Shown: piece after piece, positions 4,935-60,319 of the stretch | How the letters are laid out: each line of letters begins with the position of its first letter | How positions within the stretch are numbered: the stretch's first letter is position 1 | Assembly (NCBI RefSeq): GCF_963921235.1 | Contig: NC_086107.1 | Location: forward strand, 95,916,001-95,980,000 | Reading direction: 5' to 3' | Source of the DNA: Mobula hypostoma | Lineage: Eukaryota | DNA length: 64,000 nt | Notes under the pieces: model-generated | Told to the model about the DNA's origin: nothing | What the model saw: only the letters and a program-made list of their open reading frames with translations | The model's database searches: none | Made by a program: the position numbers and the translations under genes

Positions 4935-5755
4935 AGATTAGATTAGATTCAACTTTATTGTCATTGTGCCGAGTACAGACAAAGCCAATGAAATGCAGTT
5001 AGCATCTAAGCAGAAATGCAACGAATAGTGTTATTTACAAAATAACTGCAAATAAAAATTAAGTACACAAATATTAAAGTACTGAGACAGTACAATATGG
5101 GTGCAATACTGCTTAGTGCTGTGATGAGAGGTTCAGCAGGGGCACAGCCTCAGGGAAGAAGCTCTTCCTGTGCCTGCTGGTGCAGGAGTGGAGGCTCCTG
5201 TAGCGCATACCGGATGGGAGGAGAGTAAAAAGTCCATGGTTAGGGTGAGATGCATCCCTGATAATGCTTTTCGCCCTGCCCAGGCAGCGTTTATGGTAGA
5301 TGTTCTCAATGGTGGGCAATTGGGTGACGATAATCCACTGGGCAGTTTTCACCACACGCTGGAGTGCTTTGCGGTCCGATACAGGACAATTGCCATACCA
5401 CACTGAGATGCAGTTGGTGAGTATGTTCTCAATGGTACAGCGGTAAAAGGCCGTCAGTATCCTGGGACAGAGGTGAGCTTTCTTGATGCTCCGCAGGAAA
5501 TAAAGGCGCTGTTGTGCCTTTTTGACCAGGATGGAGGAGTTCAGGGACCAGGTGAGATCCTCAGAAATGTGGACACCAAGGAATTTGAAGCATGATACAT
5601 GCTCCACTACAGCTCCATTGATGTAGATGGGGATGTGAGTGTGGGTCCTGGCATGCCTGAAGTCCACAATGATCTCCTTGGTCTTCTGGGTGTTAAGGGC
5701 CAGGTTGTTGTTGGCACACCACGCAGCCAGGTGCTGGACCTCGTCCCTGTAGGCC
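4935..5755 (-). mobile_element. Rex1/Babar-type LINE 3' fragment, nested in CR1
   Basis: FKFLGVHISEDLTWS...KKAQQRLYFLR...FYRCTIE...LLPSG.RYRS; (ATCTA)n tail. Confidence 0.85.
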
Positions 5756-5899
5756 GAAATAATAGATAATGGTCTATGCCTTTATTCCTTCTACCAAATT
5801 GCACTCTCCTACACGATATTCCATTTGCCCATTCTCCCCATCTATCTAAATCCTTCTACTGACTCCCTGCTTCCTTAACACTACCTGTCCCTCCACCTT

Positions 5900-23955: not shown

Positions 23956-24098
23956 GTTTGACCACTGCAAGCTTCTGTGAAAGAAGAAGATGGAGTTTGC
24001 CAGCAGCCACTTCTACATTCGAAGTCCAGCTGACACGAATCACACCAAGCAGCCCGGTGGAATTTGCCCCTCGGGGTCCGAGAGCAGTGATGGGATTG
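23956..24098 (+). CDS. cpras1: First coding exon (5'UTR 23956-23989; ATG 23990; [13 protein letters not shown]...SDGI)
   Basis: Acceptor ttttcag|, donor G|gtaagt (phase 1), upstream in-frame stop at 23978. Confidence 0.8.
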
Positions 24099-27000
24099 GT
24101 AAGTGCCAGCCAGTTGTGTGGCGTTTCAGAGGCTTCACATGCATCTCTATGCCTACCGCTGTTACCATGGTAACTACAGCCATGGTAACTACAGCCATGG
24201 TTCCTGTAGTGACTACAGCCACTGCTGTCATGGTGGCTACAGCTTTGTCGTCATGGTAGCTACGTCTGTTCCCGCAGTAACTTCAACTGTATTATTCACT
24301 GCAGGGCAGGGACTTCCCGTCTACGACCCCGTGGCGACCTGCGGCCCAGCCCCAGAAGGACAACAGCCGGTAACCTCTCCACTCTACGACCAGGTGTATG
24401 AGCCTTGCCGGCTGAATCCATGGGTGTGTGAAGGAGGTGTCGGGGGCGGCGACCCTATCTACCTCAACAGCAACTCCATGCCTGTGGTCACTCCTTCCGC
24501 ACCTGCCGCCGAAAGCGGATTGGGGCTCAGCCCACACACTGGGGGCAAGGACTGCAGCAGTGTTGCTGAAAGTAGGAAGGCTTCAGACCCCCAAGCTGGG
24601 CAGCATTTCTCCGACACACCACCAGTGCCTCCACCCAGACTTCCCCGGCACAGGATAGCCCAAGGTGAGCTCCAGCACATAAACAGTGTTGTAACAGTGT
24701 TGTTGCTTCCTCATCCCAGCCGTTCCCTTGGTTACCGGGCCTCCCTCGCACCATCTTCCTCTGGCCCTTCTCTGTGAGTGGCGAAAGGTCCTCACTCTGC
24801 CCCCCCACCCCGCCCCATGGTATCCCTCCCCTTTCCTCTGCCTTCTTTCACTGCCCTGAATGTCCTCTCCTTTCTTATTCCTTCCTCCCTCTGGCTGTCA
24901 AGACACAGCCCCACACACGCCCACGTCGCCCCAGCAAGCAGGCAACGGGAGGCCAACTCCTGTACGCATTCACCTTCATAACCAGAAGGTAGGATGCAGG
25001 AGTTGGGAAGATCCACTATACCTCGAGTGTGAGTCACCTGAAACAGGGTGTGCTTGTTCCAGAGGGAGTCATCCCTCGACAGCTTCCTGCGGCATGGAAC
25101 TGCCGTTGTGATATCTGTTGTGTATTTAAGTGCTATTTGAGTAATCTTGCAAATCTGTTGTTGATTAAGGATTTCTGTTCAGTTAATTAATTATGGGTTA
25201 CGTGTGAAATACATTAATTGCATACGTCATTACACTACCATGTGATACATGCGCGCCTCGCTGAAAGTAACACCCGTATTTCGGACTACCGTGTCGTCTT
25301 TGAAGTAAATTAATGTTTTGAAGTTACAAAACATAATAATTTCCATCTTGGGTTTCTGGCATTTAGGAAAGTCAAGTGTCATGGGGATCATGCAGGATCA
25401 GAAAGGACCAAGCACTCCACCTAGCTCATGGTCTACATAGAACTGGACTAACCGGCCAATGATATCATTTCTCCCCCTCCCCACTTTTAAATAGCGTAGT
25501 ACTCATCTGAGATGTTTTGTTCTCCATGGCTGCTGCCTGACCGGTTGCTTATTTTCAGAATTTTCTGTTTTAACGAACACACCTGGAAACTTGTTAATTT
25601 CTTCCTTGTGAATCCCATTTTCCTTGATAAAGACCCAGAGGCCTATCGGCTCAGCCTGTTCATGCCAACAAGATGTTGGTCTCAGCTAGTCCCATTTGGC
25701 TCATAATGACCTAAACCTTATTGAGGTTATTATTTGATAAATCTTTGTACACCGTCAGGTTCAATATCAATGCTACGTTGCTGCTGCCTCACCCCAGTGG
25801 CTCAAAGGTTCAATTTAATATCAGGGAATGGATACAGCCTGAAATCCTTACTCTTCACAGGCGTCCACAAAACAGAAGAAAGCCTCAAAGAATGAATGAC
25901 AGAAAACGTTAGAACCCCTAAGCCCCACCTCCCCCCCACGTGTAAGCAGCAGCAAAAAGATCAATCCTTCCCCCCCCCCCCCACTTGCTCCAGCAACGGC
26001 ATCGCCACCCCCTCTACCATGCAAGCAATAGTAAAGCCCCCAGGGACCATAATCTAGTGTCCCTCAAAAACTATTGTCCATCCCAACACTTCGACATCTC
26101 AGACAGGCTCTCTCACTCACGAGCCCCCGACTCAAAGGCCGACAGACTCTCACTCACCGAGAGAGAGTGAGTGTATGGGGGCCTTCTTTCAATAGCAGTG
26201 TACACTTCTGTCTCGAAGTTTCAATCTTCCCCCCCCCCCCGATGCTTCAGTCGGCAACACCGGTGAGGAATTGGATCGTCTGCAGGGCTTCACCCAGAAG
26301 ACTCACGTCTTTTAGGCCTTACCTGAAGATGTTGAACGCCAGGCCACTTGCCGAGATCCGAGAGTAAGAACCCAGCACACATGAAGAACAGTAGTTTGAG
26401 TGCAGCTATAAATTACAGACTCCAACAGGCATTTTCCTACAGGCACCCATCCGATGGAATCCGTTGACGTTCCAGCAACTTGCTGTGTTCAGCCTGCAGG
26501 CTGACTGTCTTGTAGTCTGACCTCAGCGATGGCCCTCGAATCATTCCCTCCATATTGTTACCACCATAATTCAGTGTATCTTGTACACTCTGTTAGCACG
26601 ACACTATTACACCTCCAGATGTTCTGGAGTTCAGAGTTCAATTCCAGCACCGTCTGTAAGGAGTTTGTACATTCTCCCCGTGAACCGTGAATGTTTTCTC
26701 CGGGTGTTCTGGTTTCTTCCCACAGTCCAAAGGCCTTCTGGTTAGTAGGTTAATTGGCCATTGTAAATTGTCCTGTGATTAGGCTGGTGTTATATCAGTG
26801 GGTTGCTGGGTGGTGAGGCTCGGGTGATCAGAAGGGCCAGTTTCGTGCAGTATCTCCAAATTAAAATCAAATAAATCACCACTTCAATTCAATTTACCGC
26901 AAATTCAGGATAGACAGTGGTGAAAAAGGCATTTCGCGTACTGGCCTTTATCAATCAGGGCACTGTGAGTCCTGAGGAAGAGTCTCAGCCCATAACATTT

Positions 27001-30000: not shown

Positions 30001-33000
30001 TAAAGTCCTTCCGATCCACGCCATCTGCCTTCCCATAAGGACTATTGCAGAGCGAGTGCAGCTCTCTCTTCCAGTCCTGCTACAGGTAGAGCAACACAGT
30101 GGTGTGAGGGGTCGTGCTGCTACCTCACAACTCCAGAGACCACACTTCGATCCCGCACTCGGGTGCTGTCTATGTGGAGTTTGCACGCTCTCCCTATGGC
30201 CATCTGGGTCCCCCCACCCCCGGAGTGCTTTGGTTTCCCAATGATGTGCAGGTCGGTGGATTAATTTATTCATTTATGGGATGTGGGCTTCGCCAGCTAA
30301 GCCAGCATTTATTGCCCATCCCTATTTTAAGAGTCAACCATTGCTGTGGGTCTGGGCCAGACCAGCTGAGGACGGCAGGATTCCTCCCCTAAAGGACATT
30401 GGTGAACCAGATGGATTTTTATGACAATTGACAACTGAGATTTTTTTAATTGAATTCAAATTCACCATCTGCCCTGGTGGGATTTGAACTCATGTCCCCA
30501 GCATATAACTGGGTCTCTGGATGACTGATCCGGTGGCGATTCCCACTACGCCAGATCTCCCCACTAGGTGAGGGTACCGACGGGAATAAAGTGGGCTCGG
30601 GTGGCTCGGTGTAAATGGGTGATTGATGAACAGTATGGACTCAGTGGGCCGAAGGGCCTGTGACCTTGAAGTCAGAAATTCGGTGTGAACCTCCTGGGAA
30701 AAACATTTCCTCTTGGAGAGTCTCGCTCAGTGCAGTGGGGAGGGTTCAGCCTCTCCTCAGTGCACAGCTCGCTCTCTGTAGCCAAGGTCAGCATCCCTCC
30801 CTCATTATAATCATTTAACATTTACTGTCTCACTTGTATTTCAGAAAGGACCCATTTAATCAGCATCAATTGGTTGATTGTAATTTTGAAGCTCAACGGC
30901 GTTAATGTAAACAGGACATAATCCCCTTCTCCTTCATCCCGGAATCCCACTCCATCTCTATTCCCAACATCTCTGTGCCCAGGAACTCTCACCGTCTCAG
31001 GCACTCTGGCCGCTTCCCTGGCTGAGGAATGGGTTTCACCACCCACACTATCCACCCCCTCGTCTCAGTGTGGCACCCAGAGTCAGGGGCCTGAGGCCAG
31101 GGCCTCTCCCCAGAGCAGCTCCCCCTAAGGGTGGGAGGGGTTAGGGACTGGGGGTTGGGGGCGGCGAGAGGCACTTGGAGGGGAGTGGTGTGTAGGGGGT
31201 GTTTGTATGTGGAGGGGGAGATGTGTGGGGTTGTGAGCTGGGGGGATGGGTCGTGAGGGGTACGTGGGTGAGTGGTGTGTGGTCGGGAGTGCAGGGTTGG
31301 GTGGAGCGGGGTTTGCTGAGGCGGTGTGTAAGTGTCCTGTGCAGGTGAGATTGACTCCCTCCCTCACTGTGTTCCAGGTGTGCCGCCTCCCCTCCCGCCC
31401 AGGCCTCCCAACATGAAGAAGGCGGCTGAGTACCTGGAGGTGCTGGAGTCGAGCCCTGGCCCGTGGACCGCCCCAGGAGCCAGGCCCCCGGCGTCCGCAC
31501 CCCCTCTGCCAGATAGACGTGAGTCAGGGTGGAGTACGGCTGCTTGTTTGCTCAGCATTCCTTCGTGCACTGGGGTGCAGGCACTTTGGGAACTCAGCAG
31601 GCCAGCCAGCATCTGCGGAAAAGAGTACAGTTGACGTTTCGGGCCGAGACCCTTCAGCAGGACTTTGGGTGGTCGGTGAGGGAACTACGTTGCCTTGGTC
31701 CCAGATCTATCCTCCCAGAGGGAGAGACCACGACCTCTGCTCTCGGAAATGGCCCCATGGTTCCAGGCACTGGGCATGATGGCAGTCGGGACAGCTCCCA
31801 CAACTCAAACTGGCTCTATGGACCCTGGAACAAGGAAGCCTCACCATTCCCTGTCCATGGATCCTCTGGACGTGGGACAGTTCGGCCACCCACCAACCTT
31901 CTCCCTCCTCTGGTCTGGCCTACCACTTGCCAGCTCAAACTTCTTCCTTCCTCCACCCCCGCCCACCCTTTTATTCTGCCTTCTTTTCCCTTCCTTTCCA
32001 GTCCTGATGAAGAGCCTCGGCCTGAAACAACCCCTCCAGAGATGCTGCCTAACTTGCTGAGTTCCTCCAGCATTTTGTGTGTGTGTAGCTCTGGAAGAGG
32101 CCCTTCAGCCCATTGTGTCTGTGTGGACCGCGACACACCAAATTAAACTGGACCTTTCCGCACTCACCAGCTGTGAGATGGATAGCAGGGAGGCTGGGGA
32201 GGTGGCGTGTGGGTGGTGGGAGGTGGAGAGGGAGAACTTTACACTCCACCAGCAACACTCCTGTGTGGAACAGGATAGTAAAGTCAGCGAGAGGGTCAGG
32301 GATCTTCCAGAGGAGGTGTTCCCTCTCACTGACACTAAGGCTCTTCCAGTCCGTGAACTGCCCTCTCACCTTTCCTTCCCTCTGGATGTTCATCCAATTG
32401 TCCTTGGAAAGCTCCCTCCAACCCACTTCTGCCACTCCTTGTAGTCGCTTGCTGCAGACTACAATTTGTACAATGAAAGGAAAAGTCTCCTCTTCCCCTC
32501 TGTCTTTTGCTCTGTTCCCTGCCACTGGAAACACAATTTCCCCACCCCTTTACCTGCCACACCTGCTCACACTTCAGGCCACCTCCCCTGAACCACAGCT
32601 CATCGTCTTGCCGGGACAGACGTCGCCAAAGCCAAGGCACTCTGGTCAACTCCCTCTGCACTCTGTCCAGGATGGCAATGCCCTTCCCGAAGTGCAGAGC
32701 CCAGCAACCAGTGATGGCCCTGGGGCCAATGATGGTCAATGCTCCTGTGATGGCCATAGTGTTTCCAACGCCTGAGCTGGTGCTTAACCAGACACAGTTA
32801 TGGGTCTCAGCCTGAAACGTCAACTGTGCTCTTTTCCTTAGATGCTGCCTGGCCTGCTGAGTTCCTCCAGCATTTTGTGTGTGTTACTTAGTAACGTTTA
32901 GCATTATTTCCATACTTCAGTGTTTTAGAAAGTCCAGAACGCCTGGAGCTAATCTACCTGAGATCCAGCTCCTGGGCTTCCAGCTTCTCTGGATCAGTGC

Positions 33001-51000: not shown

Positions 51001-54000
51001 GGGTCAGTGTGTGTGTGTGTGTAGGACTGTCCCCCAGTGAGGGTCAGTGTGTGTGTAGGACTGTCCCCCAGTGAGGGTCAGTGTGTGTGTAGGACTGTTC
51101 CCCAGTGAGGGTCAGTGTGTGTGTAGGACTGTTCCCCCAGTGAGGGTCAGTGTGTGTGTGGTGCCCGTCCCCAGTGAAGGTCAGTGCATGTGTGTGGGGC
51201 CTGTTCCCCCAGTGCAGTAGTTTCAGTGTTTGGGGGGGGCAACCCCAGTGAGGGTCAGTGTGTGGGTGGGACTGTCCCCCAGTAAGGGCCAGTGTTTGTG
51301 TGGGACTGTCCCCCAGTGAGGGTCAGTGTTTGTGTGGGACCGTCCCCCAGTGAGGGTCAGTGTTTGTGTGGGAGTCATCTTCCAGTGAGGGTCAGTGTGT
51401 GTGGGACCGTCCCTCAGTGAGGGTCAGCGTGTGTGTGGGACCGTCTCCAGTGAGGGTGAGTTTTTGTGTGGGACCATCTCCAGTGAGGGTGAGTTTTTGT
51501 GTGGGACTGTCCCCCAGTGAGGGTCAGTGTGTGGGGCTCGTCCCCAGTGAGGGTCAGTGTGTGTGTGGGAGTCATCTTCCAGTGAGGGTCAGTGCGTATG
51601 TGAGCCGTATCTAAGGAGAGCGAAGGGGTGTTTGTGAAAAGTGAACTCTGCCTTATTTTAACAACGGAAGCAGCTTTCTCTGCTGTACTTGTTGACGTCT
51701 TCATTTTAATTCTTTGCTTGTACCTGCAGATTGCAGGAATGTGGTTCCACTGCACTCGGCCCAGCTGCACTCGTATCCATAGCGATGGCCTCGCGGAAAT
51801 CGGGTTCAAAGGTCAGTTGGGTTGCGATGGATTTTCGGTGGCGCCACCTTCCCCCAGTGTAACAGTCCTGCCGAGCTAAACGCCATAATGACCATCCCCT
51901 CTGTGGCTCAGCTAGTGTCACACTCCCTGAGATACTCCTAAATCCCTCCCTGGTGAAAGATTTGTGTCAGGACAGGAGCTTTCCTGCCAGGTGTATGTGG
52001 CCTTCGCCCTGGGGTTATCCTTGCTCTCCTGCATAAATATCATGTCATGATCTGGTCCTCGATGCACTGTTCTACCCCACCCTCTCCCCTCCCATTATCA
52101 CCTCCGTTCGCTGACAGGAGTGTGGTCCTGACGTGCAACGCTGGGCTACGCAGAAGGGAAATTCCCAGCCACGCCCTTGTGAAGCTGGCAGAGCAGGAGC
52201 TTTAGCTGAGACAGTTAACCAGCACTGGGGCAGCCCACAGCCCTGGAAGCTTCCAACTTCATCTCCCTGCTTTTATATTCTGCACCTCTTCACTTGCTCT
52301 TACCATAGCCAGCCTTTGCAGCTGCTCCTCGTCAGATTCCCCTCGTCCTGCTTCCACCTCGGGTTTGATACCTCTTCCCCACGGTGTTTCCGCGTCTCCT
52401 GCCCCGTGCAGGAAGGCCACTTCCTGGGTGCCCTTCGGCGTTCGGGCAGGTCTCCATGTTCTCCTCTCCGGCCAACGCTTCTCAGGAACGGTCACCAACG
52501 CCCATATTGAAGCAGAAGGTTTGGTTGCAGCGAGGATGCAGCCTTCATGAACCAGAACTAGGTTTGGAAACACCAACTGGTGTTCGCCCGACCAAAGCTC
52601 ACTCACCAGCCTACCCGCAAGGAGTCTGTGTTCCTTTGAAACACGCGGCATCATAGAAACCATAGAGAAACTACAGCACAGAAACAGGCCTTCTGGCCCT
52701 TCAGCCCTTCTTGGCTGTGCCGATCCATTTTCTGCCTAGTCCCACTGACCTGCACACGGACCATATCCCTCCATACACCTCCCATCCATGTATCTGTCCA
52801 ATTTATTCTTAAATGTTAAAAGAGAACCCGCATTTACCACCTCGTCTGGCAGCTCATTCCATACTCCCACCACTCTCTGTGTGAAGAAGCCCCTGCTAAT
52901 GTTCCCTTTAAACTTTTCCCCCTCACCCTTAACCCATGTCCTCTGGTTTTTTTCTCCCCTTGCCTCAGTGGAAAAAGCCTGCTTGCATTCACTCTATCTA
53001 TACCCATCATAATTTTATATACTTCTGTCAAATCTCCCCTCATTCTTCTACGCTCCAGGGAATAAAGTCCTAACCTATTCAACCTTTCTCTGTAACTGAG
53101 TTTCTCAAGTCCTGGCAACATCCTTGTAAACCTTCTCTGCACTCTTTCAACCTTATTTATATCCTTCCTGTAATTTGGTGACCAAAACTGAACACAATAC
53201 TCCAGATTCGGCCTCACCAATGCCTCATCATAACATTCCAGCTCTTATACTCAATACTTTGATTAATAAAGGCCAATGTACCAAAAGCTCTCTTTACGAC
53301 CCTATCTACCTGTGACGCCACTTTTGGGGAATTTTGTATCTGTATTCCCAGATCCCTCTGTTCCACTGCACTCCTCAGTGCCTTACCATTAACCCTGTAT
53401 GTTCTACCTTGGTTTGTCCTTCCAACGTGCAATACCTCACACTTGTCTGTATTAAACTCCATCTGCCATTTTTCAGCCCATTTTTCCAGCTGGTCCAAGT
53501 CCCTCTGCAGGCTCTGAAAACCTTCCTCACTGTCTACTACACCTCCAATCTTTGTATCATCAGCAAATTTGCTGATCCAATTTACCACATTATCATCCAG
53601 ATCATTGATATAGATGACAAATAACAATGGACCCAGCACTGATCCCTGTGGCACACCACTAGTCACAGGCCTCCACTCGGAGAAGCAATTCTATTCTACC
53701 ACTCTTTGGCTTCTTCCATTGAGCCAATGTCTAATCCAATTTACCACCTCTCCATGTATACCTAGCGACTGAATTTTCCTAACTAACCTCCCATGCGGGA
53801 CCTTGTCAAAGGCTTTACTGAAGTCCATGTAGACTGCCTTCCCTTCATCCACTTTCCTGGTAACCTCCTCGAAAAACTCGAATAGATTGGTCAAACATGA
53901 CCTACCACGCACAAAGCCATGTTGACTCTCCCTAATAAGTCCCTGTATATCCAAATGCTTGTAGATTCTGTCTCTTAGTACTCCCTCCAATAACTTACCT

Positions 54001-55180
54001 ACTACCGACGTTAAACTTACCGGCCTATAATTTCCCGAATTACTTTTCGATCCTTTTTTTAAACAACGGAACAACATGAGCCACTCTCCAATCCTCTGGC
54101 ACCTCACCTGTAGACAGCGACATTTTAAATATTTCTGCCAGGGCCCCTGCAATTTCAGCACTAGTCTCCTTCAAGGTCCGAGGGAACACCCTGTCAGGTC
54201 CCGGGAACTTATCCACTTTAATTTTCCTCAAGACAGCAAGCACCTCCTCCTTTTCAATGTGTACAGTTTCCATGATCTCACTACTTGTTTCCCTTAATTC
54301 CATAGACTTCATGCCAGTTTCCTTAGTAAATATAGATGCAAAAAACCTATTTAAGATCTCAAGCAACATACATCAAAGTTGCTGGTGAACGCAGCAGGCC
54401 AAGCAGCATCTATAGGAAGAGGTGCAGTCGACGTTTCAGGCCAAGACCCTGACGAAGGGTCTCGGCCTGAAACGTCGACTGCACCTCTTCCTATAGATGC
54501 TGCTTGGCCTGCTGCGTTCACCAGCAACTTTGATGTATGTTGCTTGAATTTCCAGCATCTGCAGAATTCCTGTTGTTTGTATTTAAGATCTCCCCCATTT
54601 CCTTTGGTTCCGCACATAGCCGACCATTCTGATCTTCAAGAGGACCAATTTTATCCCTTACAATCCTTTTGCTCTTAATATATCTGTAAAAGTTCTTTGG
54701 ATTATCCTTCACTTTGACTGCCAAGGCTGTGTCTTCGGGATTGGCCGGATGGTGTGCGCGTCGCACTCTGGTGTTATTGCAATCTCCCAGTGAGTCAGGG
54801 TACGGGGGACTAGCCCCTTCCCAACAAGGCAGCCAGATATCACGACCTGGGCACAAATCGGTCACGATGGGACGGGGCAATATTGCAGTCAATGACCTGG
54901 CAAAAACAGCCTCCAGAAACCTTTTATTTCTGTCCTACACCTGGGGGCAATAGAACCAACTGAAAGCCTGCAAGCAATTAAGGTGAAGGGGGGTAATTTT
55001 AAAGGAGATGTGAGAGGCAATTTTTTTTTTTTTTTTTTACAGAGTGGTGGGTGCCTAGAATGCACTGCCTGGGGTGGTGGTAGAGGCCAGTACATTAGCG
55101 TGAGGAAACCTGAGGGATGTGGACATTGTGTGGGCAGAAGAGATTAATTTAGTTGGCCATTTGATTACCAATTTATTTGA

Positions 55181-55221
<41 letters not shown>

Positions 55222-58200
55222 CCCCGCCCCCGCCCCCGCAGGAACTCAGCAGAGTGTGTTGGTTGGAAATCCAGCATCTGCAGATTTTCTTTGTTACTAA
55301 CTTATTTGGTTCGACACAACATAGTGGGCCAAAGGCCTGTTCCTGTGCCGTACTGTTCTGTGCTCTATTGGATTTTTGGGATCTGGTGGGTGTTAAGGAG
55401 GTTTTACTGTGAACGTTGAATGATGTGAGATGGTTTGTTTGGTTTGAGGTTATAATCTGTACAGACGGCCGAGCAAACACCATCCTGGGCAACCTGGAGG
55501 ATATTAAGGAAGATCTGATTTATCAAAGCTCCAAACGGTTCTACAGTCACCTTGCTGAATACGCAGTGAAGCAGGGGTAAGTGCCCAGTGCAGAACTTCA
55601 GATTTTGTTTCCAATGTTATTTATTTTATTGAGATACAGTGTGGAGTAGGCCTTTCTGGCCCTTTCAGCCATGCTGCCCAACAATCCTCCTGATTTAATC
55701 CTGGCCTAATCATGAGACGGTTTACAATGACCAATTAATCTACCAACCGGTATGTGTTTGGATAGTTGGAGGAAACCAGAGCACCCGGAGGAAACCCACA
55801 CGGTCGCAGGGAGAGCGTACAAACTCCTTACAGGCACCAGCGGGATTTGAACCCTGCACTGTAAGGCGCTGTGCTAACCACTATGCTACCATGCCTCCCC
55901 AAGGTGATCAGAGGGCGTGTCACCTAGGCAGGGCAATGGGTCAAGTGAAGGAGAGAAAGTTCCAAGGTAGCGGTTCTCCGCTGTCTAAGTCCATCCCAGC
56001 TGGAGCTGAATCCCCTCGTCTCACAATTGCTCAATGCTGGAGTTTGATGACCTTGGAGAGGATGATGACGGTGAAGACACAAAGATTCATAATGTTGAGA
56101 TTGGGGAGATGGAGTCGGTCAGCAGGTCCCCACTGGCTTGTTATTGGAGCAGCTGAGCAGAGTGACATCAAAGTCAACCTGAGGTAACGTGCGGGCAAAG
56201 GTTGGGCACCTTCTGTGCAGAGCCAAGACCTGGGGTGTTGACCTTTGACCTGTGCTCCTTTTGTGGAAAGAATGAGCAGCTAGCTCTCCACTACCCCTAC
56301 CTACCCCCCCCGCCACCGAGATCTCTAAATTCCTCACAACCACCCCCCCCACCCCCCAAAAGCAGGCCCTGTTTGAACACTAGAGCGAGGAAGCAATGTC
56401 TCACGATCCACCTGGACCTTTCTTTGCAGGGTGATCATCTCGGTGTTGACAATCAAGGGCACAGATTGCAGGTTACCCGAGCTGGGACAGCTGGCTGACA
56501 AAACAGGAGGAAAGGTGAGTCGGCCTGCGGGGTGGGCGGGGGGAGCTTCAAGGGTGGGAGACGGGGCTGAGCCTGTGAATTGGTGCTGGAGACTAGAACT
56601 GACAGAAACATGGCACAATCAGCTAAGTCGGGAGCAGCGTCTGTCCGGAGGCTGGATTTATGCCTAATTGCCCATGGCTTCAGGTTGATGGGGAAATGAG
56701 ATGAGTGGAGAGTTGCCAAGGTGGAGTGGAGACAGTGGTTACCTAGTGGGTTGTTATCAGAGGAGAAAATGAGAAAGGATGTGTAAGGATTGACTTTCGC
56801 TGCTTCTTCACCTCAGGTGAACATCACCAATCCAGCCAGTTTATACAACGAATTTGAGCTCATTTTAGAAGACGATGTCATTGCCACGAATGTCACTATC
56901 ACCTTCTTCGCTGACGCTGGCCTGTAAGTGTCTGTGATCTGTGGTTTATGATCCAGGTCCGCGCCACGGGGCAAGACGAGGGATTCCGCCTGAGCCAAGG
57001 TGGATCGGGACTGTTTCGGGTATAGCAGTGCCACCTGGCACTCTCAGCTGCTGGAAGAGTAAAGGGCACATTCAGGGGCTGGGGTGGGTGAGGTTACGTC
57101 AGCTGGTGAGTGATACCAGAAATAGTTTTGGTAGCGGGGAAAAAAACTGAAAAACAAAGAATGTAAGAAATGGAACCAGCTGATTCGAAAGACTCCTCCA
57201 TCTCCACCGCAGCACTAACTTTCTGCGTTTACCCCATAGCCTATAATTCCCTTAATGTCAAAGGATTCATCGATCTCCCATGATGGACGTAGTCAGTATC
57301 TGAGTGCTTGGAGGTAGACAGGTTCAGAGATTCAGCCCTCGCTCAGTAAAGACATTTCTCCTGTTTGTTGTTGTAAATGGAGAACCCTTGTGCTGAGACT
57401 GGTCCCCCTCCCACTGTCCTAGACACTCCAGCAAGAGCAAGTAACAACTCTGACAGCCTCCTGTTGAGCCCCTCAGGAATGTTGTAGTTTTAATGAAGCG
57501 TGCCTGATTTCTCTAAACTGGACGGTAAGACCTGTCTGGGGTGTCCTTGTACAACAGTTTCAGCTTTGAGGCAGCTTCCAACGCTCCATTGTAGCATCAG
57601 GTCCAATCCGATTGTTCGCTTGCTGTGCCATTTTGTTTCTAACACTTTTAATTCTAATTAAGCCAATTCCATAGTCCTAGGAGTTTACAAGAGTGGGGGG
57701 CAACCTTACCCATACATATCTGACCCTCGGGTGCCTGACTGGGGAGATGTGGGAGTCACGAGCAAGGGGACATCGTTGGAAAAGAAGAAAATTGGGTCAT
57801 CCAAAATTGGGCTGTGTGGAAATTTCTCTTCTCGGACAATGATGAATCTTTGGAATTCTCTCCAGTAAGGGCACTGGAGGCCAGACACTGGATATAGTTA
57901 AGATGGAGATAGATAAGTATTTGAAAGATTGAGGAATTGAGGTTTAAGGGTAGGAGAGGAGTTGAGGCCAGCAGAGATCATATATAAATAACTGAACACC
58001 CTTGAGGGGCTGAGTGGCCTACTCCTGTTCCTTGTGTGGAATGTTAACTTCCAATTTCCTTGGAGGAATTGAGGTTTAAGGGTAGGAGAGGAGTTGAGGC
58101 CAGCAGAGATCATATATAAATAACTGAACACCCTTGAGGGGCTGAGTGGCCTACTCCTGTTCCTTGTGTGGAATGTTAACTTCCAATTTCCTTGCAGGTA

Positions 58201-60319
58201 TTTTAAGTATGAAGACAACATCAGCAACAAATACGTGAAAGAAATTGGGAATGTGGTCAAAGATATGGCCATCACCTTTGAGTTTGGAATCAAAGACATG
58301 GAGCGAGAGGGTAAGTGTGCCATTTAACAGGCGGAGCCCAGGCTTTAACAAGACTGTAACACTGGGGATGTCTCCAGTTCTCTGCTGTGGACTGGGACAT
58401 CTTGACAAGTCCCTCGGGGTCGAGGGCGACTTCCTCACTCCAGTTCTGTGGTTTCCCAGGTGGACGATAGGGTAACATGGGACTGGACCTGATGATGTGG
58501 CTAGGTAACTGGTGTCCTCCCAACGCTTGGCCTCCGAGTTCTCAGTGCTGTCCGAATGCTTCACTTCCTTTCTAAGCAGATGTGGTCTAGGGATTCCCGT
58601 GAGTCAGTCATAACCTCTTGCCAGGACGGGAGAGTGTGGAAGAGGAGGTCTGTGACGATGCAGCCTGCCCGGAGGAGACAGTGGTGTGTAATTAGGCCGT
58701 CAATCATGGCGATGTCAGCCTGGGAGAGGACTCTGATGCCAGGTTGCTCACTGGCCAGTGGGCGTGGATTTCGGCTTGTGCCGACAACATCGTTGAGACC
58801 TCTCCTGTGCTCTGAAGGGTCTGTGTCTGAAGGAGAGAGGTGAATGGTGATCTCTGCTGGATTTGATGATCAAACACCCTTTCTCCCCAGGTGATCCAAG
58901 ACCACATTGACATAGAGGTGATGGAGGACGCTAGTCTCCCCTCAGATTTTTGCTCACCCACTCCTGGGCATCTCTGTGGGCTTTAGAAATCAGATGCTGG
59001 TGTTGTATGATGGGGGCAGGTTGCTTCAGGAACTTTGTTTGGCAGATGTTTAACATCAGGCCCATGACCTCGTACACTTCAGTGAACATGAAGTGTGCAC
59101 GTGCAAGCTTCGTGTTCACACCACAGCTTCATTACAAACCTTGGTGTGACATTCCTTATGGAGATGATGAGAGTTGAGCTGATTTCCATCTGCCCTGGAG
59201 ATCCAATCCACTCCTTCACTGAAGTGCCGCAGACTGGGGAGGGGAGGCTAAGCAAAGTATTGGGTCCACGTGGCCTTGCCTGAAAACTGGCTCCGACGGG
59301 CACCTCTTGATGCGCCAAAACAAAGACAATATGTAGCGAAGGGAAATTTGAGAAGGATATTCCACAGTCTTGCCCTCAGTGAGGTGGGAAAAGGCCCTTG
59401 TGGTTGGTGCTGCTCTTCTTGTTTCTCCGAAAGTTATCCTGTGGTGAAATCACGTTCACTCTGCCTCAAGACGCGCTGCCACTGGGAAGTGAGCGTCTAA
59501 TCCAGCTCCAGAGATGCTGTGCTCATAAAACAGTGGCTGCGCTCAAGTCAGCACTAAGGCATCCATTAGTCTTGCGAGACCATGGATCTGCGCCTGGAAA
59601 GTCTTCACTCTCCAGGGCGCAGGCCTGGACAAGGTTGTATGGAAGACCGGCAGTTGCCCATGCTGCAAGTCTCCCCTCTACACAAGACCGATGTTGTCCA
59701 AGGGAAGGGCATTAGGACCCAAACAGCTTGGCACCGGTGTCATCGCAGAGTAATGTGTGATTAAGTGCCTTGCTCAAGGACACGTTGCCTCGGCTGGGGC
59801 TCGAACTCACGACCTTCAGGTCGCTAGTCCAATGTCTTAACCACCTGGCCACGTGCCCACACCAGCGAAGGGAAATTACAGCACTAAGTGTTGTTGAAAG
59901 GCACCAGTGGTTCATTAGAAATTCAGGTACTAAAGGGATTTGAGGAGAAGGCGATGTGAAAGCTGCCTCTGGGGTGTAGGCTCGGGTCGTCTTACAAACA
60001 GAGCCTGGAGAATATTCACCAGACCTGAATGTGAACAATTCTGCAAAGTGAACCAGCTGACAGGTGTATGTAACACAGTTCCTTCAGCAGATGGTTTATT
60101 GCTCCAGCTTCCAACCGCAGCCCAGTCTCGAATCAAAACTGGAGACCGAGGAGGGTGTTCATTTTAATGTGTTAGAATTTGTTTTAATGTCCCTTCCTGT
60201 TCCCCAGAACTTCTGAAGAAAACTGCACTCCCCTTCCAACTTCAGCTGGGCTTTGCACTCCCAGACGGACGCCATGTCTACAGGATCGTTACTCAGGAAA
60301 AGCCTATGACCAGCCACAG
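23990..60319 (+). CDS. cpras1: Spliced gene: circularly permutated Ras protein 1-like (Pro/Tyr-rich N-term + Sec23/24-type Zn finger + vWA + beta-rich domain); 3'-incomplete. join(23990-24098,24305-24664,[30915-31130],31378-31518,34509-34595,36117-36205,39495-39674,41037-41087,42330-42419,48731-48882,51730-51811,55449-55576,56430-56514,56817-56923,58198-58310,60208-60319,...)
   Basis: All exons have AG/GT boundaries with matching phases and give one open frame of 2102 nt (~700 aa). An in-frame TGA lies 12 nt upstream of the ATG. Motifs: MEFA start, [13 protein letters not shown], CxxC...[68 protein letters not shown]. Family name is from recall. Confidence 0.85.
24161..24174. promoter_or_regulatory. 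Palindromic RFX X-box GTTACCATGGTAAC
   Basis: Exact match to GTTRCCATGGYAAC, followed by degenerate 15-bp repeats of the half-site. Confidence 0.5.
24305..24664 (+). CDS. cpras1: Coding exon, Tyr/Pro-rich ([10 protein letters not shown]...[15 protein letters not shown])
   Basis: ttcactgcag| and G|gtgagc; 360 nt, phase 1-1, open. Confidence 0.75.
25116..25338 (+). mobile_element. Possible solo LTR
   Basis: TGTTGTGT...ACATAATA imperfect inverted ends; imperfect 5-bp TSD ATATC/ATTTC. Confidence 0.4.
27025..28890 (-). mobile_element. CR1 LINE fragment (RT region, degenerate)
   Basis: [12 protein letters not shown]...[10 protein letters not shown]...[32 protein letters not shown]. Confidence 0.85.
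29560..29980 (+). mobile_element. Young CR1 3' fragment
   Basis: [27 protein letters not shown]...[14 protein letters not shown]. Confidence 0.85.
30915..31130 (+). CDS. Possible (cassette) Pro-rich coding exon (HNPLLLHPG...PRAAPPK)
   Basis: aaacag| and AAGG|gtggga; 216 nt, phase 1-1, open; both splice sites are weak. Confidence 0.45.
31378..31518 (+). CDS. cpras1: Coding exon ([23 protein letters not shown]...PPLPDR)
   Basis: gttccag| and C|gtgagt; 141 nt, phase 1-1. Confidence 0.8.
34352..34483 (+). mobile_element. Short Penelope-tail insertion with 14-bp TSD in the 3' splice region
   Basis: TSD TAACTTTCCCTTGT at 34338-34351 and 34484-34497. Confidence 0.8.
34509..34595 (+). CDS. cpras1: Coding exon ([28 protein letters not shown])
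   Basis: ttccacag| (NAGNAG alternative 3 nt downstream) and G|gtaagc; phase 1-1. Confidence 0.85.
34825..35955. repeat. G-rich minisatellite, ~28-32 bp unit (gggggtttgaggggacggtgtgtgtgt)
   Basis: Tandem copies visible directly. Confidence 0.95.
36117..36205 (+). CDS. cpras1: Coding exon, first half of Zn finger ([19 protein letters not shown]...)
   Basis: ctacag| and |gtgagt; branch-point-like ttctaac upstream; phase 1-0. Confidence 0.85.
36432..37060 (-). mobile_element. Rex1/Babar-type LINE 3' fragment
   Basis: LKKAGL...FYRCTTES...[16 protein letters not shown]; (TTTCAA)n tail. Confidence 0.8.
37958..38565 (-). mobile_element. Tigger/pogo-type DNA transposon remnant
   Basis: TA|CAGTAGATTC terminus; acidic transposase-C-terminus-like peptide on the minus strand. 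Confidence 0.5.
38570..39180 (+). mobile_element. Penelope-like element fragment with inverted 5' part
   Basis: 38570-38790 is an antisense GIY-YIG remnant, followed by the sense tail with a decayed hammerhead (39079-39116). Confidence 0.6.
39495..39674 (+). CDS. cpras1: Coding exon, second half of Zn finger + vWA start ([11 protein letters not shown]...[17 protein letters not shown])
   Basis: ccctcag| and |gtaagg; 180 nt; WxCxFC and DxSxS motifs. Confidence 0.92.
41037..41087 (+). CDS. cpras1: Short coding exon ([17 protein letters not shown])
   Basis: cctaac branch point + poly-T + gcag|CAG (NAGNAG, alternative start 41040); |gtatga; phase 0-0. Confidence 0.85.
42330..42419 (+). CDS. cpras1: Coding exon, vWA ([30 protein letters not shown])
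   Basis: gttgcag| and |gtaggt; 90 nt; RVALVTF strand typical of vWA/Sec23-24 trunk. Confidence 0.9.
43150..44520 (+). mobile_element. Degenerate Penelope-like element (Zn knuckle + GIY-YIG endonuclease remnant, pyrimidine-rich 3' region, hammerhead remnant)
   Basis: 43545-43920 translates to [34 protein letters not shown]; tail family shared with 39000-39180 and 47650-47850. Confidence 0.7.
45628..46830 (-). mobile_element. Two stacked Rex1-type LINE 3' fragments
   Basis: (TTCTGA)n tails at 45628 and 46068; [32 protein letters not shown]. Confidence 0.8.
47320..47850 (+). mobile_element. Penelope-like element 3' part with hammerhead ribozyme motif
   Basis: EEQHL...[14 protein letters not shown] endonuclease C-terminus, then the family tail. 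Confidence 0.75.
47700..47737 (+). ncRNA. Minimal type I hammerhead ribozyme motif (PLE type)
   Basis: cagtc-CTGAAGA-agggtctcagcct-GAAA-cgtt-gactg: stem I cagtc/gactg, conserved core, palindromic ACGT stem III, GUU cleavage triplet. Confidence 0.65.
48731..48882 (+). CDS. cpras1: Coding exon, vWA ([25 protein letters not shown]...RRRVQ)
   Basis: tttctcag| and CT|gtgagt; phase 0-2. Confidence 0.9.
49635..51597. repeat. Minisatellite, ~34-40 bp unit (cagtgagggtcag(tg)n-aggactgtcccc)
   Basis: Tandem copies with variable (TG)n and repeated variant blocks. Confidence 0.95.
51730..51811 (+). CDS. cpras1: Coding exon, vWA ([27 protein letters not shown])
   Basis: cctgcag| and |gtcagt; phase 2-0; GSTALGPA carries the MIDAS Thr. 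Confidence 0.9.
52656..54722 (-). mobile_element. Young CR1 LINE fragment (RT domain with frameshifts)
   Basis: [61 protein letters not shown]. Confidence 0.92.
54361..54579 (+). mobile_element. Young 5'-truncated Penelope-like insertion with inverted terminal segment (hairpin) and 13-bp TSD
   Basis: ~90-bp near-perfect inverted arms centred near 54453; TSD TATTTAAGATCTC at 54348-54360 and 54580-54592; interrupts a CR1. Confidence 0.85.
55449..55576 (+). CDS. cpras1: Coding exon, vWA ([18 protein letters not shown]...YAVKQG)
   Basis: Unusual tttgag| acceptor, GG|gtaagt donor; phase 0-2; TDG carries the MIDAS Asp. Confidence 0.88.
56430..56514 (+). CDS. cpras1: Coding exon, vWA ([28 protein letters not shown])
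   Basis: tttgcag| and |gtgagt; phase 2-0; LAxxTGG motif. Confidence 0.9.
56817..56923 (+). CDS. cpras1: Coding exon ([35 protein letters not shown])
   Basis: cctcag| and CT|gtaagt; phase 0-2. Confidence 0.9.
57931..58194. repeat. Apparently perfect 132-bp tandem duplication abutting a 3' splice site
   Basis: 57931-58062 matches 58063-58194. Confidence 0.93.
58198..58310 (+). CDS. cpras1: Coding exon ([37 protein letters not shown])
   Basis: ccttgcag| and G|gtaagt; phase 2-1. Confidence 0.88.
58480..59530 (-). mobile_element. Degenerate RTE-clade LINE fragment
   Basis: [25 protein letters not shown] resembles the RTE RT C-terminal motif. Confidence 0.5.
59557..59862 (-). mobile_element. 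Same tRNA-derived SINE family, full length
   Basis: Reverse complement of 5900-6208. Confidence 0.85.
60208..60319 (+). CDS. cpras1: Last coding exon recognised in the window ([36 protein letters not shown])
   Basis: ttccccag| and AG|gtaact; phase 1-2; resembles the Sec23/24 beta-sandwich pattern FQ...Y..dG....RV.T. Confidence 0.87.

What the first reader, a model, noticed from the sequence alone, without database searches (positions are those of the whole stretch)
23990..60319. Ras-less 'cpras1-like' protein: signalling-adaptor N-terminus fused to a Sec23/24-like core with an intact MIDAS
Seen: the reconstructed ~700 aa have no P-loop or other G motifs. The N-terminal ~275 aa are low-complexity and carry Tyr motifs ([21 protein letters not shown]) and Pro motifs ([21 protein letters not shown]). 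These are followed by CxxC/WxCxFC, a vWA domain with D-I-S-G-S, T (GSTALG) and D (CTDG), and a beta-rich region. Established: the Zn finger-vWA trunk-beta-sandwich order is the Sec23/Sec24 COPII architecture; pY-x-N and PxxPxR are SH2 and class II SH3 ligands; DxSxS/T/D is a metal-binding MIDAS. Inference: this is a poorly characterised COPII-like fold repurposed as a phosphotyrosine-regulated scaffold, with a ligand-binding metal site that canonical Sec23/24 do not use.
Basis: partly seen in the sequence, partly recalled or inferred. Interest (0 to 1): 0.75.

Follow-up and report, generated by a model that had tools for sequence, protein, structure and literature searches.

The report
Ras-less Sec24-like MIDAS protein gene
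This is a real, expressed ray gene whose database name is misleading: it has no Ras domain but combines a disordered tail of docking motifs with a Sec23/24-like, metal-site-bearing core, and it belongs to an annotated but unstudied family.

Summary
Window 23990-60319 carries the first 15 of 19 GT-AG coding exons of a 759-aa protein. Four more exons lie up to 11.7 kb beyond the window. It is about 97% identical to Mobula birostris 'circularly permutated Ras protein 1-like'. Spliced contigs from four sequencing runs join the Pro-rich exons to the zinc-finger/vWA exons. An in-frame TGA 12 nt before the ATG, no P-loop and no Ras-like exon nearby make it Ras-less.

The core is homologous to Sec23/24: Pfam Sec23_trunk scores above cut-off, and the family profile hits solved Sec24 at E about 1e-13, collinear from zinc finger to the start of the helical domain. 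All five MIDAS residues are kept in 119 of 123 relatives. Yeast Sec24 lacks two of them. No gelsolin domain was detected.

In the disordered N-terminus, PPP[LV]PxR, YxN/YDN, YDxV and Y[LVI]x[VLI] motifs are conserved far above shuffles across two vertebrate paralogue clades.

Phosphotyrosine regulation remains inference. Ras-less relatives were already noted in 2008, and in true CPRas proteins the Ras domain is N-terminal, not downstream. Verdict: new member of a known, uncharacterised kind; moderate interest.

The parts
23978..23980 (+). in-frame TGA stop, 12 nt upstream of the start codon and inside the same transcribed exon
   Evidence: spliced contigs cover from 23953 onwards
23990..24098 (+). 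coding exon 1 (aa 1-37); invariant N-terminal MEF and conserved Tyr9
24305..24664 (+). coding exon 2 (aa 37-157), disordered; carries [16 protein letters not shown] and PPVPPPR
31378..31518 (+). coding exon 3 (aa 157-204), disordered; carries [13 protein letters not shown] and PPLPDR, the best-conserved short motifs
34512..34595 (+). coding exon 4 (aa 204-232); conserved [11 protein letters not shown] segment just before the zinc finger
36117..36205 (+). coding exon 5 (aa 232-261); first CxxC of the zinc finger (C242, C245)
39495..39674 (+). coding exon 6 (aa 262-321); WxCxFC second zinc knuckle (C265, C268) and MIDAS D311-I-S313-G-S315
41037..41087 (+). coding exon 7 (aa 322-338)
   Evidence: a 50-nt gap in contig coordinates between exons 6 and 8 fits it
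42330..42419 (+). coding exon 8 (aa 339-368), trunk/vWA
48731..48882 (+). coding exon 9 (aa 369-419), trunk/vWA
   Evidence: homology and GT-AG only
51730..51811 (+). coding exon 10 (aa 419-446); MIDAS Thr426 in GSTALG
55449..55576 (+). coding exon 11 (aa 447-489); MIDAS Asp452 in CTDG
56430..56514 (+). coding exon 12 (aa 489-517), end of the trunk
56817..56923 (+). coding exon 13 (aa 518-553), beta-sandwich region
58198..58310 (+). coding exon 14 (aa 553-591), beta-sandwich region
60208..60319 (+). coding exon 15 (aa 591-628), end of the beta-sandwich (the Q..Q...R..R[IV].T pattern shared with Sec23/24); the gene continues beyond the window

Best explanation
The locus is an intact, transcribed gene for a 759-aa cytosolic protein. 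It is the ray orthologue of vertebrate 'circularly permutated Ras protein 1-like' (paralogue clade A).

It has two parts:
- Residues 1 to about 205 are a fast-evolving, Pro/Ser/Gly-rich disordered tail. Its few conserved islands are short linear motifs: two PPP[LV]PxR (PxxPxR-type SH3 ligands), YDxV and YxN Tyr motifs, and Y[LVI]x[VLI].
- Residues from about 215 to 759 are a folded core of zinc finger (C-x2-C-x19-C-x2-C), vWA 'trunk' with a complete MIDAS (D311, S313, S315, T426, D452), a beta-sandwich and a C-terminal helical region. This core is homologous to the Sec23/Sec24 inner-coat core and to the C-terminal half of CPRas1, but has no gelsolin domain and no Ras domain.

Most likely mechanism (inferred): a scaffold or adaptor. 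The MIDAS-bound Mg2+/Mn2+ captures an acidic side chain of a protein ligand, as in other MIDAS vWA domains. The tail recruits SH3-domain proteins constitutively and, if its tyrosines are phosphorylated, SH2 proteins.

My odds:
- identity and architecture: about 0.95
- MIDAS functional in ligand binding: about 0.6
- Pro motifs are SH3 ligands: about 0.55
- Tyr motifs used as phosphotyrosine sites: about 0.3
For: Gene and transcript:
- There are 19 coding exons, all GT-AG, with a TGA stop. 738 of 759 residues are identical to P0001, with one 4-residue gap (my count on the alignment).
- Contigs of 3180 and 3193 nt in runs X2 and X3, plus partial ones in X1 and X4 (all one study), are collinear and intron-less over exons 1-6 and 8, with 0 differing letters.
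- No retrocopy was found in the genome: 2 places only, this gene and its paralogue.

Ras-less:
- In-frame TGA before the ATG and no P-loop.
- tblastn with four cpRAS N-termini found nothing at E<0.01 in the window or the 40 kb downstream; the best match (E 0.039, 39444-39527) lies on the zinc-finger-encoding region.
- 0 of 23 vertebrate members scanned have a Pfam Ras hit.

Core:
- Sec23_trunk scores 34.5 bits against a cut-off of 27, and VWA_2 27.4 against 27.
- The profile of 123 relatives hits solved Sec24 at E 1e-13. It aligns zinc finger plus the start of the trunk, and then trunk, beta-sandwich and the start of the helical domain.
- The vertebrate profile hits Sec23A at E 5.5e-6 in three collinear pieces.
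- The four Cys are invariant or nearly so, and all five MIDAS residues are present in 119 of 123 relatives.
- Yeast Sec24 aligned there has DVSQS but Phe for the Thr and Gly for the Asp.

Tail:
- Mean conservation is 0.36 against 0.62 for the core, with islands at MEF, Y9, Y43-D44, Y64-D65, PPPLPPRP, Y175 and PPLPxR.
- Sequences carrying each motif, against the mean number of sequences in shuffles: PP[LVI]Px[RK] 23/24 and 23/23 (0.34, 0.25); YxN 22/24 and 23/23 (8.9, 5.1); YDx[VIP] 17/24 in clade A (2.2); Y[LVI]x[VLI] 22/24 in clade A (5.4).
- Both paralogues share the identical intron-phase series, including the tail exons. The tail therefore predates their duplication.

Established knowledge:
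- GRB2 SH2 reads pYxNx and its nSH3 reads PxxPxR (PMC10968029, passages).
- Nephrin YDxV motifs are Tyr-phosphorylated (PMC11247170, abstract).
Against: - The fold, the exposure of the MIDAS and the disorder of the tail therefore rest on sequence alone.
- zf-Sec23_Sec24 (15.5 bits against 25) and Sec23_BS (14.5 against 33.5) are below Pfam cut-offs in P0001, and no Sec23_helical hit was returned.
- No data on phosphorylation, metal binding, partners or localisation exist for any member: no study of the vertebrate genes' function turned up in the library searches.
- Tyr motifs of the form YxxΦ and PPP-containing motifs have non-phospho readings (see rivals).
- The most widely conserved Tyr site (YDN) is absent at its aligned position in this very lineage.
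- One clade-A sequence (P0033) has none of the motifs.
- The sequencing runs are labelled RNA only by guess. Their RNA nature is inferred from the intron-less contigs.
Confidence: 0.5

Rival explanations
1. It is a COPII-associated accessory factor. The PPP-containing motifs of the tail bind the gelsolin domain of Sec23, as those of TANGO1, cTAGE5, Sec31 and Sec16 do. The Sec24-like core acts at ER exit sites as an alternative cargo or adaptor module. No tyrosine phosphorylation is involved.
For: - The core is homologous to Sec23/24.
- Both conserved Pro motifs contain PPP in most orthologues.
- Triple-proline motifs in disordered Pro-rich regions bind the Sec23 gelsolin domain (PMC7594496, passages).
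Against: - The Arg/Lys at the end of PP[LVI]Px[RK] is conserved in 46 of 47 vertebrate N-termini. An SH3 class II ligand requires it; a PPP motif does not.
- The second motif in this protein is APPLPDR, with only two prolines in a row.
- The core lacks the gelsolin domain and keeps a MIDAS that Sec24 lacks.
- No amniote appears among the 110 named rows of the 120 best hits, which would be odd for a core COPII factor.
Confidence: 0.15
2. The tail motifs are read without phosphorylation. YDPV, YDQV and YLEV act as YxxΦ-type sorting signals or other aromatic-acidic motifs for clathrin-adaptor or endocytic proteins. The Pro motifs bind SH3, WW or EVH1 domains of endocytic or cytoskeletal proteins. 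The protein would link a MIDAS ligand to vesicle or actin machinery.
For: - YDPV, YDQV and YLEV all fit Y-x-x-hydrophobic.
- The core comes from a vesicle-coat superfamily.
- PPLP and PxxxPR readings of the same Pro motifs are possible (own knowledge, not from a call).
Against: - YxxΦ signals normally sit in tails of membrane proteins (own knowledge).
- The best-conserved Tyr site across both paralogues is YDN (23 of 23 in clade B). It fits pYxN but is not YxxΦ in most sequences (YDNR).
Confidence: 0.2
3. It is a ubiquitin- or proteasome-linked vWA protein, like Rpn10 or the WAV3-type RING-vWA ligases. The core would bind a substrate or a ligase rather than act in signalling or trafficking.
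For: - One true CPRas relative carries a C-terminal RING (P0134; Naegleria case in PMC2430557).
- Language-model neighbours of residues 526-763 include Vwaint (0.90) and VWA_3_C (0.84) clusters, and neighbours of residues 205-763 include a RING-vWA cluster at 0.88. These are leads only.
- PSMD4 appears at E 0.09 in the PDB search.
Against: - There is no RING, UIM or other ubiquitin-related domain in this protein or in the 23 vertebrate members scanned.
- The scores cited above are at lead level only.
Confidence: 0.05
4. The gene model is an artefact or a pseudogene: the Pro-rich exons belong to another transcript, or the ORF is decaying.
For: None found.
Against: - Single contigs join exons 1-6 and 8.
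- The 759-codon ORF is open and all 18 introns are GT-AG.
- The core is 93% identical to Hemitrygon and 84% to Pristis.
Confidence: 0.01

Closest known systems
Predicted 'circularly permutated Ras protein 1-like' proteins of cartilaginous fishes, lobe-finned fishes, amphibians and basal ray-finned fishes (clade A; e.g. Mobula birostris P0001)
   Same: It is an orthologue: about 97% identical to P0001, with the same length, motifs and domain order. It sits in a clade with SH-aLRT 95.
   Different: Nothing of substance differs. These are automatic annotations with a misleading name, and no study of their function turned up in the library searches.
Vertebrate paralogue 'circularly permutated Ras protein 1' (clade B; UniRef name Si:dkey-9k7.3; P0208 in Mobula birostris)
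   Same: - About 49% identical in the core.
- It lies on the same chromosome, 43 Mb upstream, on the same strand.
- It has 19 coding exons with the identical intron-phase series.
- It shares the PPP[LV]PPR and YDN motifs.
   Different: - The tail is shorter (121-200 aa).
- It has no Y[LVI]x[VLI] motif (0 of 23) and almost no YDx[VIP] (1 of 23).
- Clade B is the clade that holds Danio, Oncorhynchus, Thunnus and Melanotaenia, whereas the only teleosts in clade A are Megalops and Paramormyrops.
CPRas1-type proteins (cpRAS-VWA; Elias & Novotny 2008, PMC2430557)
   Same: The zinc finger plus vWA/Sec23_trunk half is homologous, and the MIDAS is also intact (P0079, P0134, P0143, P0161).
   Different: True CPRas proteins carry an N-terminal circularly permuted Ras domain (Pfam Ras in two stretches). 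Here that position is taken by a disordered motif-bearing tail. The 2008 paper already noted Ras-less relatives in Dictyostelium, Entamoeba, Lottia, Capitella, sea urchin and ciliates as a separate group.
Sec24 / Sec23 (COPII inner coat)
   Same: - A zinc finger with the W-x-C-x-F-C knuckle, the trunk, the beta-sandwich with the Q...R..R[IV].T pattern and the start of the helical domain align collinearly.
- The Pfam Sec23_trunk hit is above cut-off.
   Different: - No gelsolin domain: no hit, and only about 130 residues follow the beta-sandwich.
- The MIDAS is complete here, whereas yeast Sec24 has Phe and Gly at the Thr and Asp positions.
- There is no evidence for Sar1 binding or Sec23 pairing.
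- No amniote among the 110 named rows of the 120 best hits.
Archaeal ArnA/ArnB (Sulfolobus; PMC12852372)
   Same: By the paper's description, ArnB is a vWA with a metal-occupied MIDAS plus a beta-sandwich and a helical C-domain, with a zinc finger docking on it. There is no gelsolin domain and regulation is by phosphorylation. The authors say Sec23/24 share this arrangement (abstract and passages).
   Different: - The zinc finger is on a separate chain (ArnA), and the phospho-reader is an FHA domain reading pThr.
- ArnB was not among the PDB sequence hits at E<=1.
- The resemblance was not tested structurally here.
Docking regions with multiple Tyr and Pro motifs (nephrin YDxV sites; the Sos1 Pro-rich peptide for Grb2 nSH3)
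   Same: The motif grammar is the same: YDxV, YxN and PxxPxR in a disordered region.
   Different: There is no homology, and no phosphorylation or binding data exist for this protein.

Membership tests
CPRas (cpRAS-VWA) proteins | N-terminal circularly permuted RAS GTPase domain (G3-G4-G5-G1-G2) | tested here: not met
   - No Pfam Ras hit at E<=0.1 and no P-loop.
- In-frame stop 12 nt before the ATG in the transcribed exon.
- No Ras-like exon in the window or the 40 kb downstream.
CPRas (cpRAS-VWA) proteins | Conserved C-terminal half with a four-Cys zinc finger and a vWA/Sec23_trunk domain | tested here: met
   phmmer finds true CPRas proteins at E 5e-69 to 3e-58. The Cys and MIDAS columns are shared.
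Sec23/Sec24 (COPII inner coat) | Sec23/Sec24 zinc finger | tested here: inconclusive
   Four invariant or near-invariant Cys and the WxCxFC knuckle align to Sec24 and Sec23A. Pfam zf-Sec23_Sec24 scores 15.5 bits in P0001, below the cut-off of 25; it passes in some relatives (26.6-28.3 bits).
Sec23/Sec24 (COPII inner coat) | Trunk (vWA-fold) domain | tested here: met
   PF04811 scores 34.5 bits against a cut-off of 27, over residues 340-525 of P0001.
Sec23/Sec24 (COPII inner coat) | Beta-sandwich domain | tested here: inconclusive
   PF08033 scores 14.5 bits against a cut-off of 33.5. The family profile nevertheless aligns through the Sec24 and Sec23A beta-sandwich.
Sec23/Sec24 (COPII inner coat) | Helical domain followed by a gelsolin-like domain | tested here: not met
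   - No Sec23_helical or Gelsolin hit.
- The alignment to yeast Sec24 ends at its residue 677 of 926, while only about 130 residues remain here.
- A helical region is likely, but a gelsolin domain does not fit.
Sec23/Sec24 (COPII inner coat) | Sec23-Sec24 heterodimer and Sar1 binding | not testable with these tools
vWA domains with a functional MIDAS | DxSxS + Thr + Asp metal ligands | tested here: met
   D311, S313, S315, T426 and D452 are present here. All five are present in 119 of 123 relatives.
vWA domains with a functional MIDAS | Bound divalent cation and metal-dependent ligand binding | not testable with these tools
   No structure model could be made, and there is no experiment.
ArnB-like vWA + beta-sandwich + helical modules | Structural superposition on ArnB or ArnE | not tested
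   Only the paper's description was read. No model was available for a fold search.
Phosphotyrosine/SH3 docking proteins | Conserved PxxPxR and pY-type motifs in a disordered region | tested here: met
Phosphotyrosine/SH3 docking proteins | Tyrosine phosphorylation and SH2/SH3 partner binding | not testable with these tools
   No data; no study of the vertebrate genes' function turned up in the library searches.

The most novel reading that the evidence does not exclude
The family is a switchable MIDAS adaptor whose input module has been exchanged in evolution. In CPRas proteins it is a covalently attached Ras-like GTPase, echoing Sar1 with Sec23/24. In vertebrates it is a phosphotyrosine/SH3-read tail. 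In the boldest form, the conserved Tyr-Asp motifs are intramolecular pseudo-ligands of the MIDAS metal. Tyrosine phosphorylation or SH2 capture would release them, giving a phosphotyrosine-gated metal-dependent adaptor. This would parallel the phosphorylation-driven ArnA/ArnB switch of archaea. No amniote member was seen among the hits listed here.
Probability: 0.06. Interest if true: 0.75.

Novelty: new member of a known kind. Interest (0 to 1): 0.35.

Why it matters
Practical value:
- The database name 'circularly permutated Ras protein 1(-like)' is wrong for vertebrates. None of the 23 vertebrate members scanned has a Ras domain.
- The proteins are better described as Sec23/24-related zinc finger-vWA(MIDAS) proteins with a motif-bearing tail.

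Biological value:
- This is a wholly uncharacterised two-gene vertebrate family, conserved from chimaeras to amphibians and ray-finned fishes.
- No amniote appears among the 110 named rows of the 120 best hits.
- It keeps a complete metal site that Sec24 has lost.
- Its docking motifs have been conserved since before the two paralogues split; both clades include cartilaginous and bony fishes.

This makes a concrete, testable candidate for a link between SH3 or phosphotyrosine signalling and a coat-like binding module. The orthologues listed for Danio and Xenopus would make zebrafish (clade B) and Xenopus (clade A) natural systems for the tests. It is not a new kind of system. The Ras-less relatives were noted in 2008, and Pfam already labels the trunk domain.

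Tried and rejected
No model, no pLDDT and no fold search were therefore possible.
- Complex prediction (a homodimer of residues 215-706) was 'not available'.
- The look-up of sequencing runs listed no holder on record as RNA. The four best holders were laid anyway, and their intron-less contigs are what is used.
- The search of earlier findings returned nothing by place, by words or by sequence.
- A search for Ras-like exons with four cpRAS N-termini found nothing.
- I tried to read the MIDAS positions of Sec23 from an intronless Sec23-like retrocopy of this genome (L011). The family HMM did not align across those motifs, so Sec23 was not assessed and only yeast Sec24 is quoted.
- ESM Atlas: it holds no structure for P0001. 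The feature neighbours (Asgard, ciliate and plant Sec23_trunk/VWA clusters at 0.91-0.97; Vwaint 0.90) are kept as leads only.
- Pfam on 18 long ORFs in flanks and introns gave only repeat-type hits (RVT_1, ALKBH8_N), and no second gene was seen.
- The reading 'Ras domain downstream' was rejected, because in true CPRas proteins the Ras domain is N-terminal.

Full report
**What is there.** The window is G000:C45:95916001-95980000 of a 3.48-Gb genome. A translated ORF fragment at 39414-39689 finds twelve proteins. The best is Mobula birostris 'circularly permutated Ras protein 1-like isoform X2' (P0001, 763 aa), followed by other rays and sharks.

tblastn of P0001 places residues 1-631 on 23990-60317 of the + strand. 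Residues 632-763 fall on four further exons in the 20 kb that follow the window (L003 and L004). A junction search that required GT..AG, a kept frame and the best fit to P0001 gave 19 coding exons, 2277 nt, 759 aa and then TGA. By my count on that alignment, 738 of 759 residues are identical to P0001, with one 4-residue gap.

Two of its size estimates are not. The window encodes 628 residues rather than about 700. The low-complexity part ends near residue 205-215 rather than 275.

**Is it expressed as one transcript?** Four runs of one study hold exon 6 completely. Their contigs were laid on 23900-43899.
- Single contigs of 3180 nt (X2) and 3193 nt (X3) run without introns through 23953-24097, 24304-24662, 31376-31518, 34509-34594, 36116-36204, 39494-39672 and 42327-42422. 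They show no differing letter, and a 50-nt gap in contig coordinates fits exon 7.
- X1 and X4 give the same joints in pieces.
- These are the predicted splice sites, so the Pro-rich exons are joined to the zinc-finger and vWA exons.
- The runs are labelled RNA only by guess. The genome shows no retrocopy of the gene, only two places (this gene and its paralogue), so the intron-less form is best read as mRNA.
- About 152 nt of each contig lie upstream of 23953 as 5'UTR.
- Exons 9-19 rest on homology, splice signals and the contig length only.

**Ras-less?** Yes.
- The transcribed exon has an in-frame TGA at 23978-23980, 12 nt before the ATG.
- The protein has no GxxxxGK[ST] motif.
- Pfam reports no Ras family on P0001 at E<=0.1.
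- The N-terminal 300 residues of four true CPRas proteins find nothing at E<0.01 in the window or the 40 kb downstream; the best match (E 0.039, 39444-39527) lies on the zinc-finger-encoding region.
- In true CPRas proteins the permuted Ras domain is N-terminal to the zinc finger and vWA (PMC2430557, passages read). Of 39 phmmer hits scanned, the 4 with Ras (P0079, P0134, P0143, P0161) carry it at residues of about 9-182.
- None of the 23 vertebrate members scanned has a Ras hit.
- The same 2008 paper already noted relatives 'lacking even vestiges' of cpRAS in several taxa.

**The core.**
- Pfam on P0001: Sec23_trunk 34.5 bits (cut-off 27; residues 340-525); VWA_2 27.4 (cut-off 27); zf-Sec23_Sec24 15.5 (below 25); Sec23_BS 14.5 (below 33.5).
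- phmmer against 1.84 billion representatives finds 1813 proteins at E<=0.001 and 548 at E<=1e-30.
- A profile of 123 of them (A1) hits solved Sec24 chains at E about 1e-13. The two collinear stretches cover the zinc finger plus the first trunk strand, and then the second half of the trunk, the beta-sandwich and the start of the helical domain.
- A vertebrate-only profile (A2) hits human Sec23A at E 5.5e-6 in three collinear pieces.
- The W-x-C-x-F-C knuckle and the Q...R..R[IV].T pattern of the beta-sandwich are shared with both Sec23 and Sec24.
- In A1 the four Cys are present in 122-123 of 123 sequences, and all five MIDAS residues in 119 of 123.
- Yeast Sec24, aligned to the same columns, has D-V-S-Q-S but Phe at the Thr position and Gly at the Asp position. 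Sec24 therefore lacks two of the five ligands. Sec23 could not be assessed.
- After the beta-sandwich only about 130 residues remain, and no gelsolin or Sec23_helical hit is reported. A gelsolin domain is absent.
- The arrangement zinc finger + vWA(MIDAS) + beta-sandwich + helical domain without gelsolin is what a 2026 paper describes for archaeal ArnA/ArnB. Its authors say Sec23/24 share that arrangement (PMC12852372, abstract and passages).
- Language-model neighbours include Asgard and ciliate Sec23_trunk/VWA clusters (0.96-0.97), and Vwaint, VWA_3_C and Sec23_BS clusters for the C-terminal part. These are leads only.
- I could not fold the protein.

**The tail.**
- Residues 1-205 are 68% disorder-promoting residues, with Pro the commonest at 39 of 205.
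- Across 22 clade-A orthologues mean column conservation is 0.36, against 0.62 for the core. Identity to P0001 falls to 15-28% in bony vertebrates, against 38-54% in the core.
- The conserved islands are MEF and Tyr9, Y43-D44, Y64-D65, PPPLPPRP, Tyr175 and PPLPxR.
- Motif counts in the N-termini of 24 clade-A and 23 clade-B proteins, against 300 shuffles:

| Motif | Clade A | Clade B | Shuffle mean (sequences) |
|---|---|---|---|
| PP[LVI]Px[RK] | 23/24 | 23/23 | 0.34 / 0.25 |
| YxN | 22/24 | 23/23 (nearly always YDNR) | 8.9 / 5.1 |
| YDx[VIP] | 17/24 | 1/23 | 2.2 / 0.8 |
| Y[LVI]x[VLI] | 22/24 | 0/23 | 5.4 / 2.3 |

- The widely conserved YDN site is replaced by PAAESG in Mobula and in this window, leaving IYLN as the only YxN.
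- Known readers of such motifs: GRB2 SH2 for pYxNx and its nSH3 for PxxPxR (PMC10968029, passages); a Sos1 Pro-rich peptide binds Grb2 nSH3 (PMC6934455, abstract); nephrin YDxV motifs are Tyr-phosphorylated (PMC11247170, abstract); the link of YDXV to Nck I saw only as a title in a reference list.
- That these motifs are functional is well supported. That they work through phosphotyrosine is inference.

**Family context.**
- A tree of 54 proteins shows two vertebrate clades. Clade A is this gene (SH-aLRT 95) and holds cartilaginous fishes, coelacanth, lungfish, salamanders, frogs, bichir, paddlefish, bowfin, tarpon and a mormyrid. Clade B (SH-aLRT 99) holds cartilaginous fishes, coelacanth, lungfish, caecilians and ray-finned fishes, including Danio, Oncorhynchus, Thunnus and Melanotaenia.
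- Tunicate proteins lie outside both clades. CPRas proteins were used as the outgroup.
- The clade-B gene of this genome lies 43 Mb upstream on the same chromosome and strand. It has 19 coding exons and the identical intron-phase series. 14 of 18 introns fall in the same alignment column and phase, 2 within one column, and 2 in the unalignable tail.
- Tail and core were therefore already one gene before the duplication.
- Of the 120 best hits to the core, the 110 with names are all from fishes and amphibians, with no amniote. This suggests loss in amniotes but does not prove it.
- No study of the vertebrate genes' function turned up in the library searches. 'Circularly permutated Ras protein' occurs in 4 papers (search listing and abstracts seen; one occurrence each, none in a title or abstract). 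'dkey-9k7.3' has 0 occurrences in the 15 papers listed of 55.

**How it most likely works.**
- Shown: the gene, its transcript over exons 1-8, the absence of Ras, the homology of the core, and the conservation of the MIDAS, the zinc finger and the tail motifs.
- Inferred: the core binds a protein ligand through a metal-coordinated acidic side chain. The tail brings in SH3 proteins and, if phosphorylated, SH2 proteins. Together they would form a scaffold.
- Rivals: (1) PPP motifs that bind the Sec23 gelsolin domain, as in TANGO1, cTAGE5, Sec31 and Sec16 (PMC7594496, passages), making it a COPII accessory; the conserved terminal Arg, the missing gelsolin domain and the kept MIDAS speak against this. 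(2) Non-phospho YxxΦ or endocytic readings. (3) A ubiquitin-system vWA protein.

**Verdict.** This is a new member, an orthologue, of a known, database-annotated and functionally unstudied kind. Its name should be read as 'Ras-less'.

Noticed in passing
window 1019-2820: A C-rich 33-bp minisatellite of about 56 copies (79% matches). It explains the GC of 0.60 and the GC skew of -0.44 in the first 4 kb.
   Followed up: no
window 34820-35953 and 49576-51602: G/T-rich minisatellites inside introns 4 and 9 (29 bp x 39 copies; 36 bp x 57 copies). They create the long stop-free 'PHTHT...' and '[12 protein letters not shown]...' pseudo-ORFs on both strands.
   Followed up: no
window 57931-58062 and 58063-58194: A perfect (100%) 132-nt tandem duplication ends 3 nt before the acceptor of exon 14. 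The repeat period continues to 58202 by TRF. The exon's frame is open upstream only to 58124, so a stop lies in that frame about 75 nt before the exon and use of the copied upstream site would not be coding.
   Followed up: partly
window 53214-54170 (-) and 5113-5781 (-): Reverse-transcriptase fragments (RVT_1, 55.6 and 65 bits) lie in intron 10, and an ALKBH8_N-type repeat ORF lies upstream of the gene. No second host gene was seen among the 18 long ORFs scanned.
   Followed up: partly
G000:C45:52510357-52567280 (+) (L007-L010, L012-L017): The clade-B paralogue ('circularly permutated Ras protein 1', P0208-like) lies on the same chromosome 43 Mb upstream. It has 19 coding exons and the identical intron-phase series.
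   Followed up: yes
window 24305-24664, 31378-31518, 34512-34595 (exons 2-4): The exons that encode the tail and the pre-zinc-finger segment are all phase 1-1 and multiples of 3 (360, 141, 84 nt), so they are cassette-compatible. Annotated shark isoforms lack the exon-4 segment (P0004) or the exon-3 segment (P0005) in the alignment.
   Followed up: partly
window 24490-24520 region (aa ~100-110): The YDN(R) site is conserved in most clade-A orthologues and in all 23 clade-B proteins. In Mobula and in this window it is replaced by PAAESG.
   Followed up: partly
window 23990-24016; L004:1604-1693: Two conserved ends remain unexplained. The N-terminus MEF is invariant in 18 of 18 vertebrate sequences of both clades, and Tyr9 is conserved in about 90% of 22 clade-A sequences. 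The C-terminal tail is polybasic (LKNAKKKMFKKPKF; 8 K/R in the last 20 residues) and conserved in clade A.
   Followed up: no
L011 (G000:C52:97925001-97930000), about 1506-3758: An intronless Sec23-like copy is spread over three different reading frames. It looks like a processed pseudogene of Sec23.
   Followed up: partly
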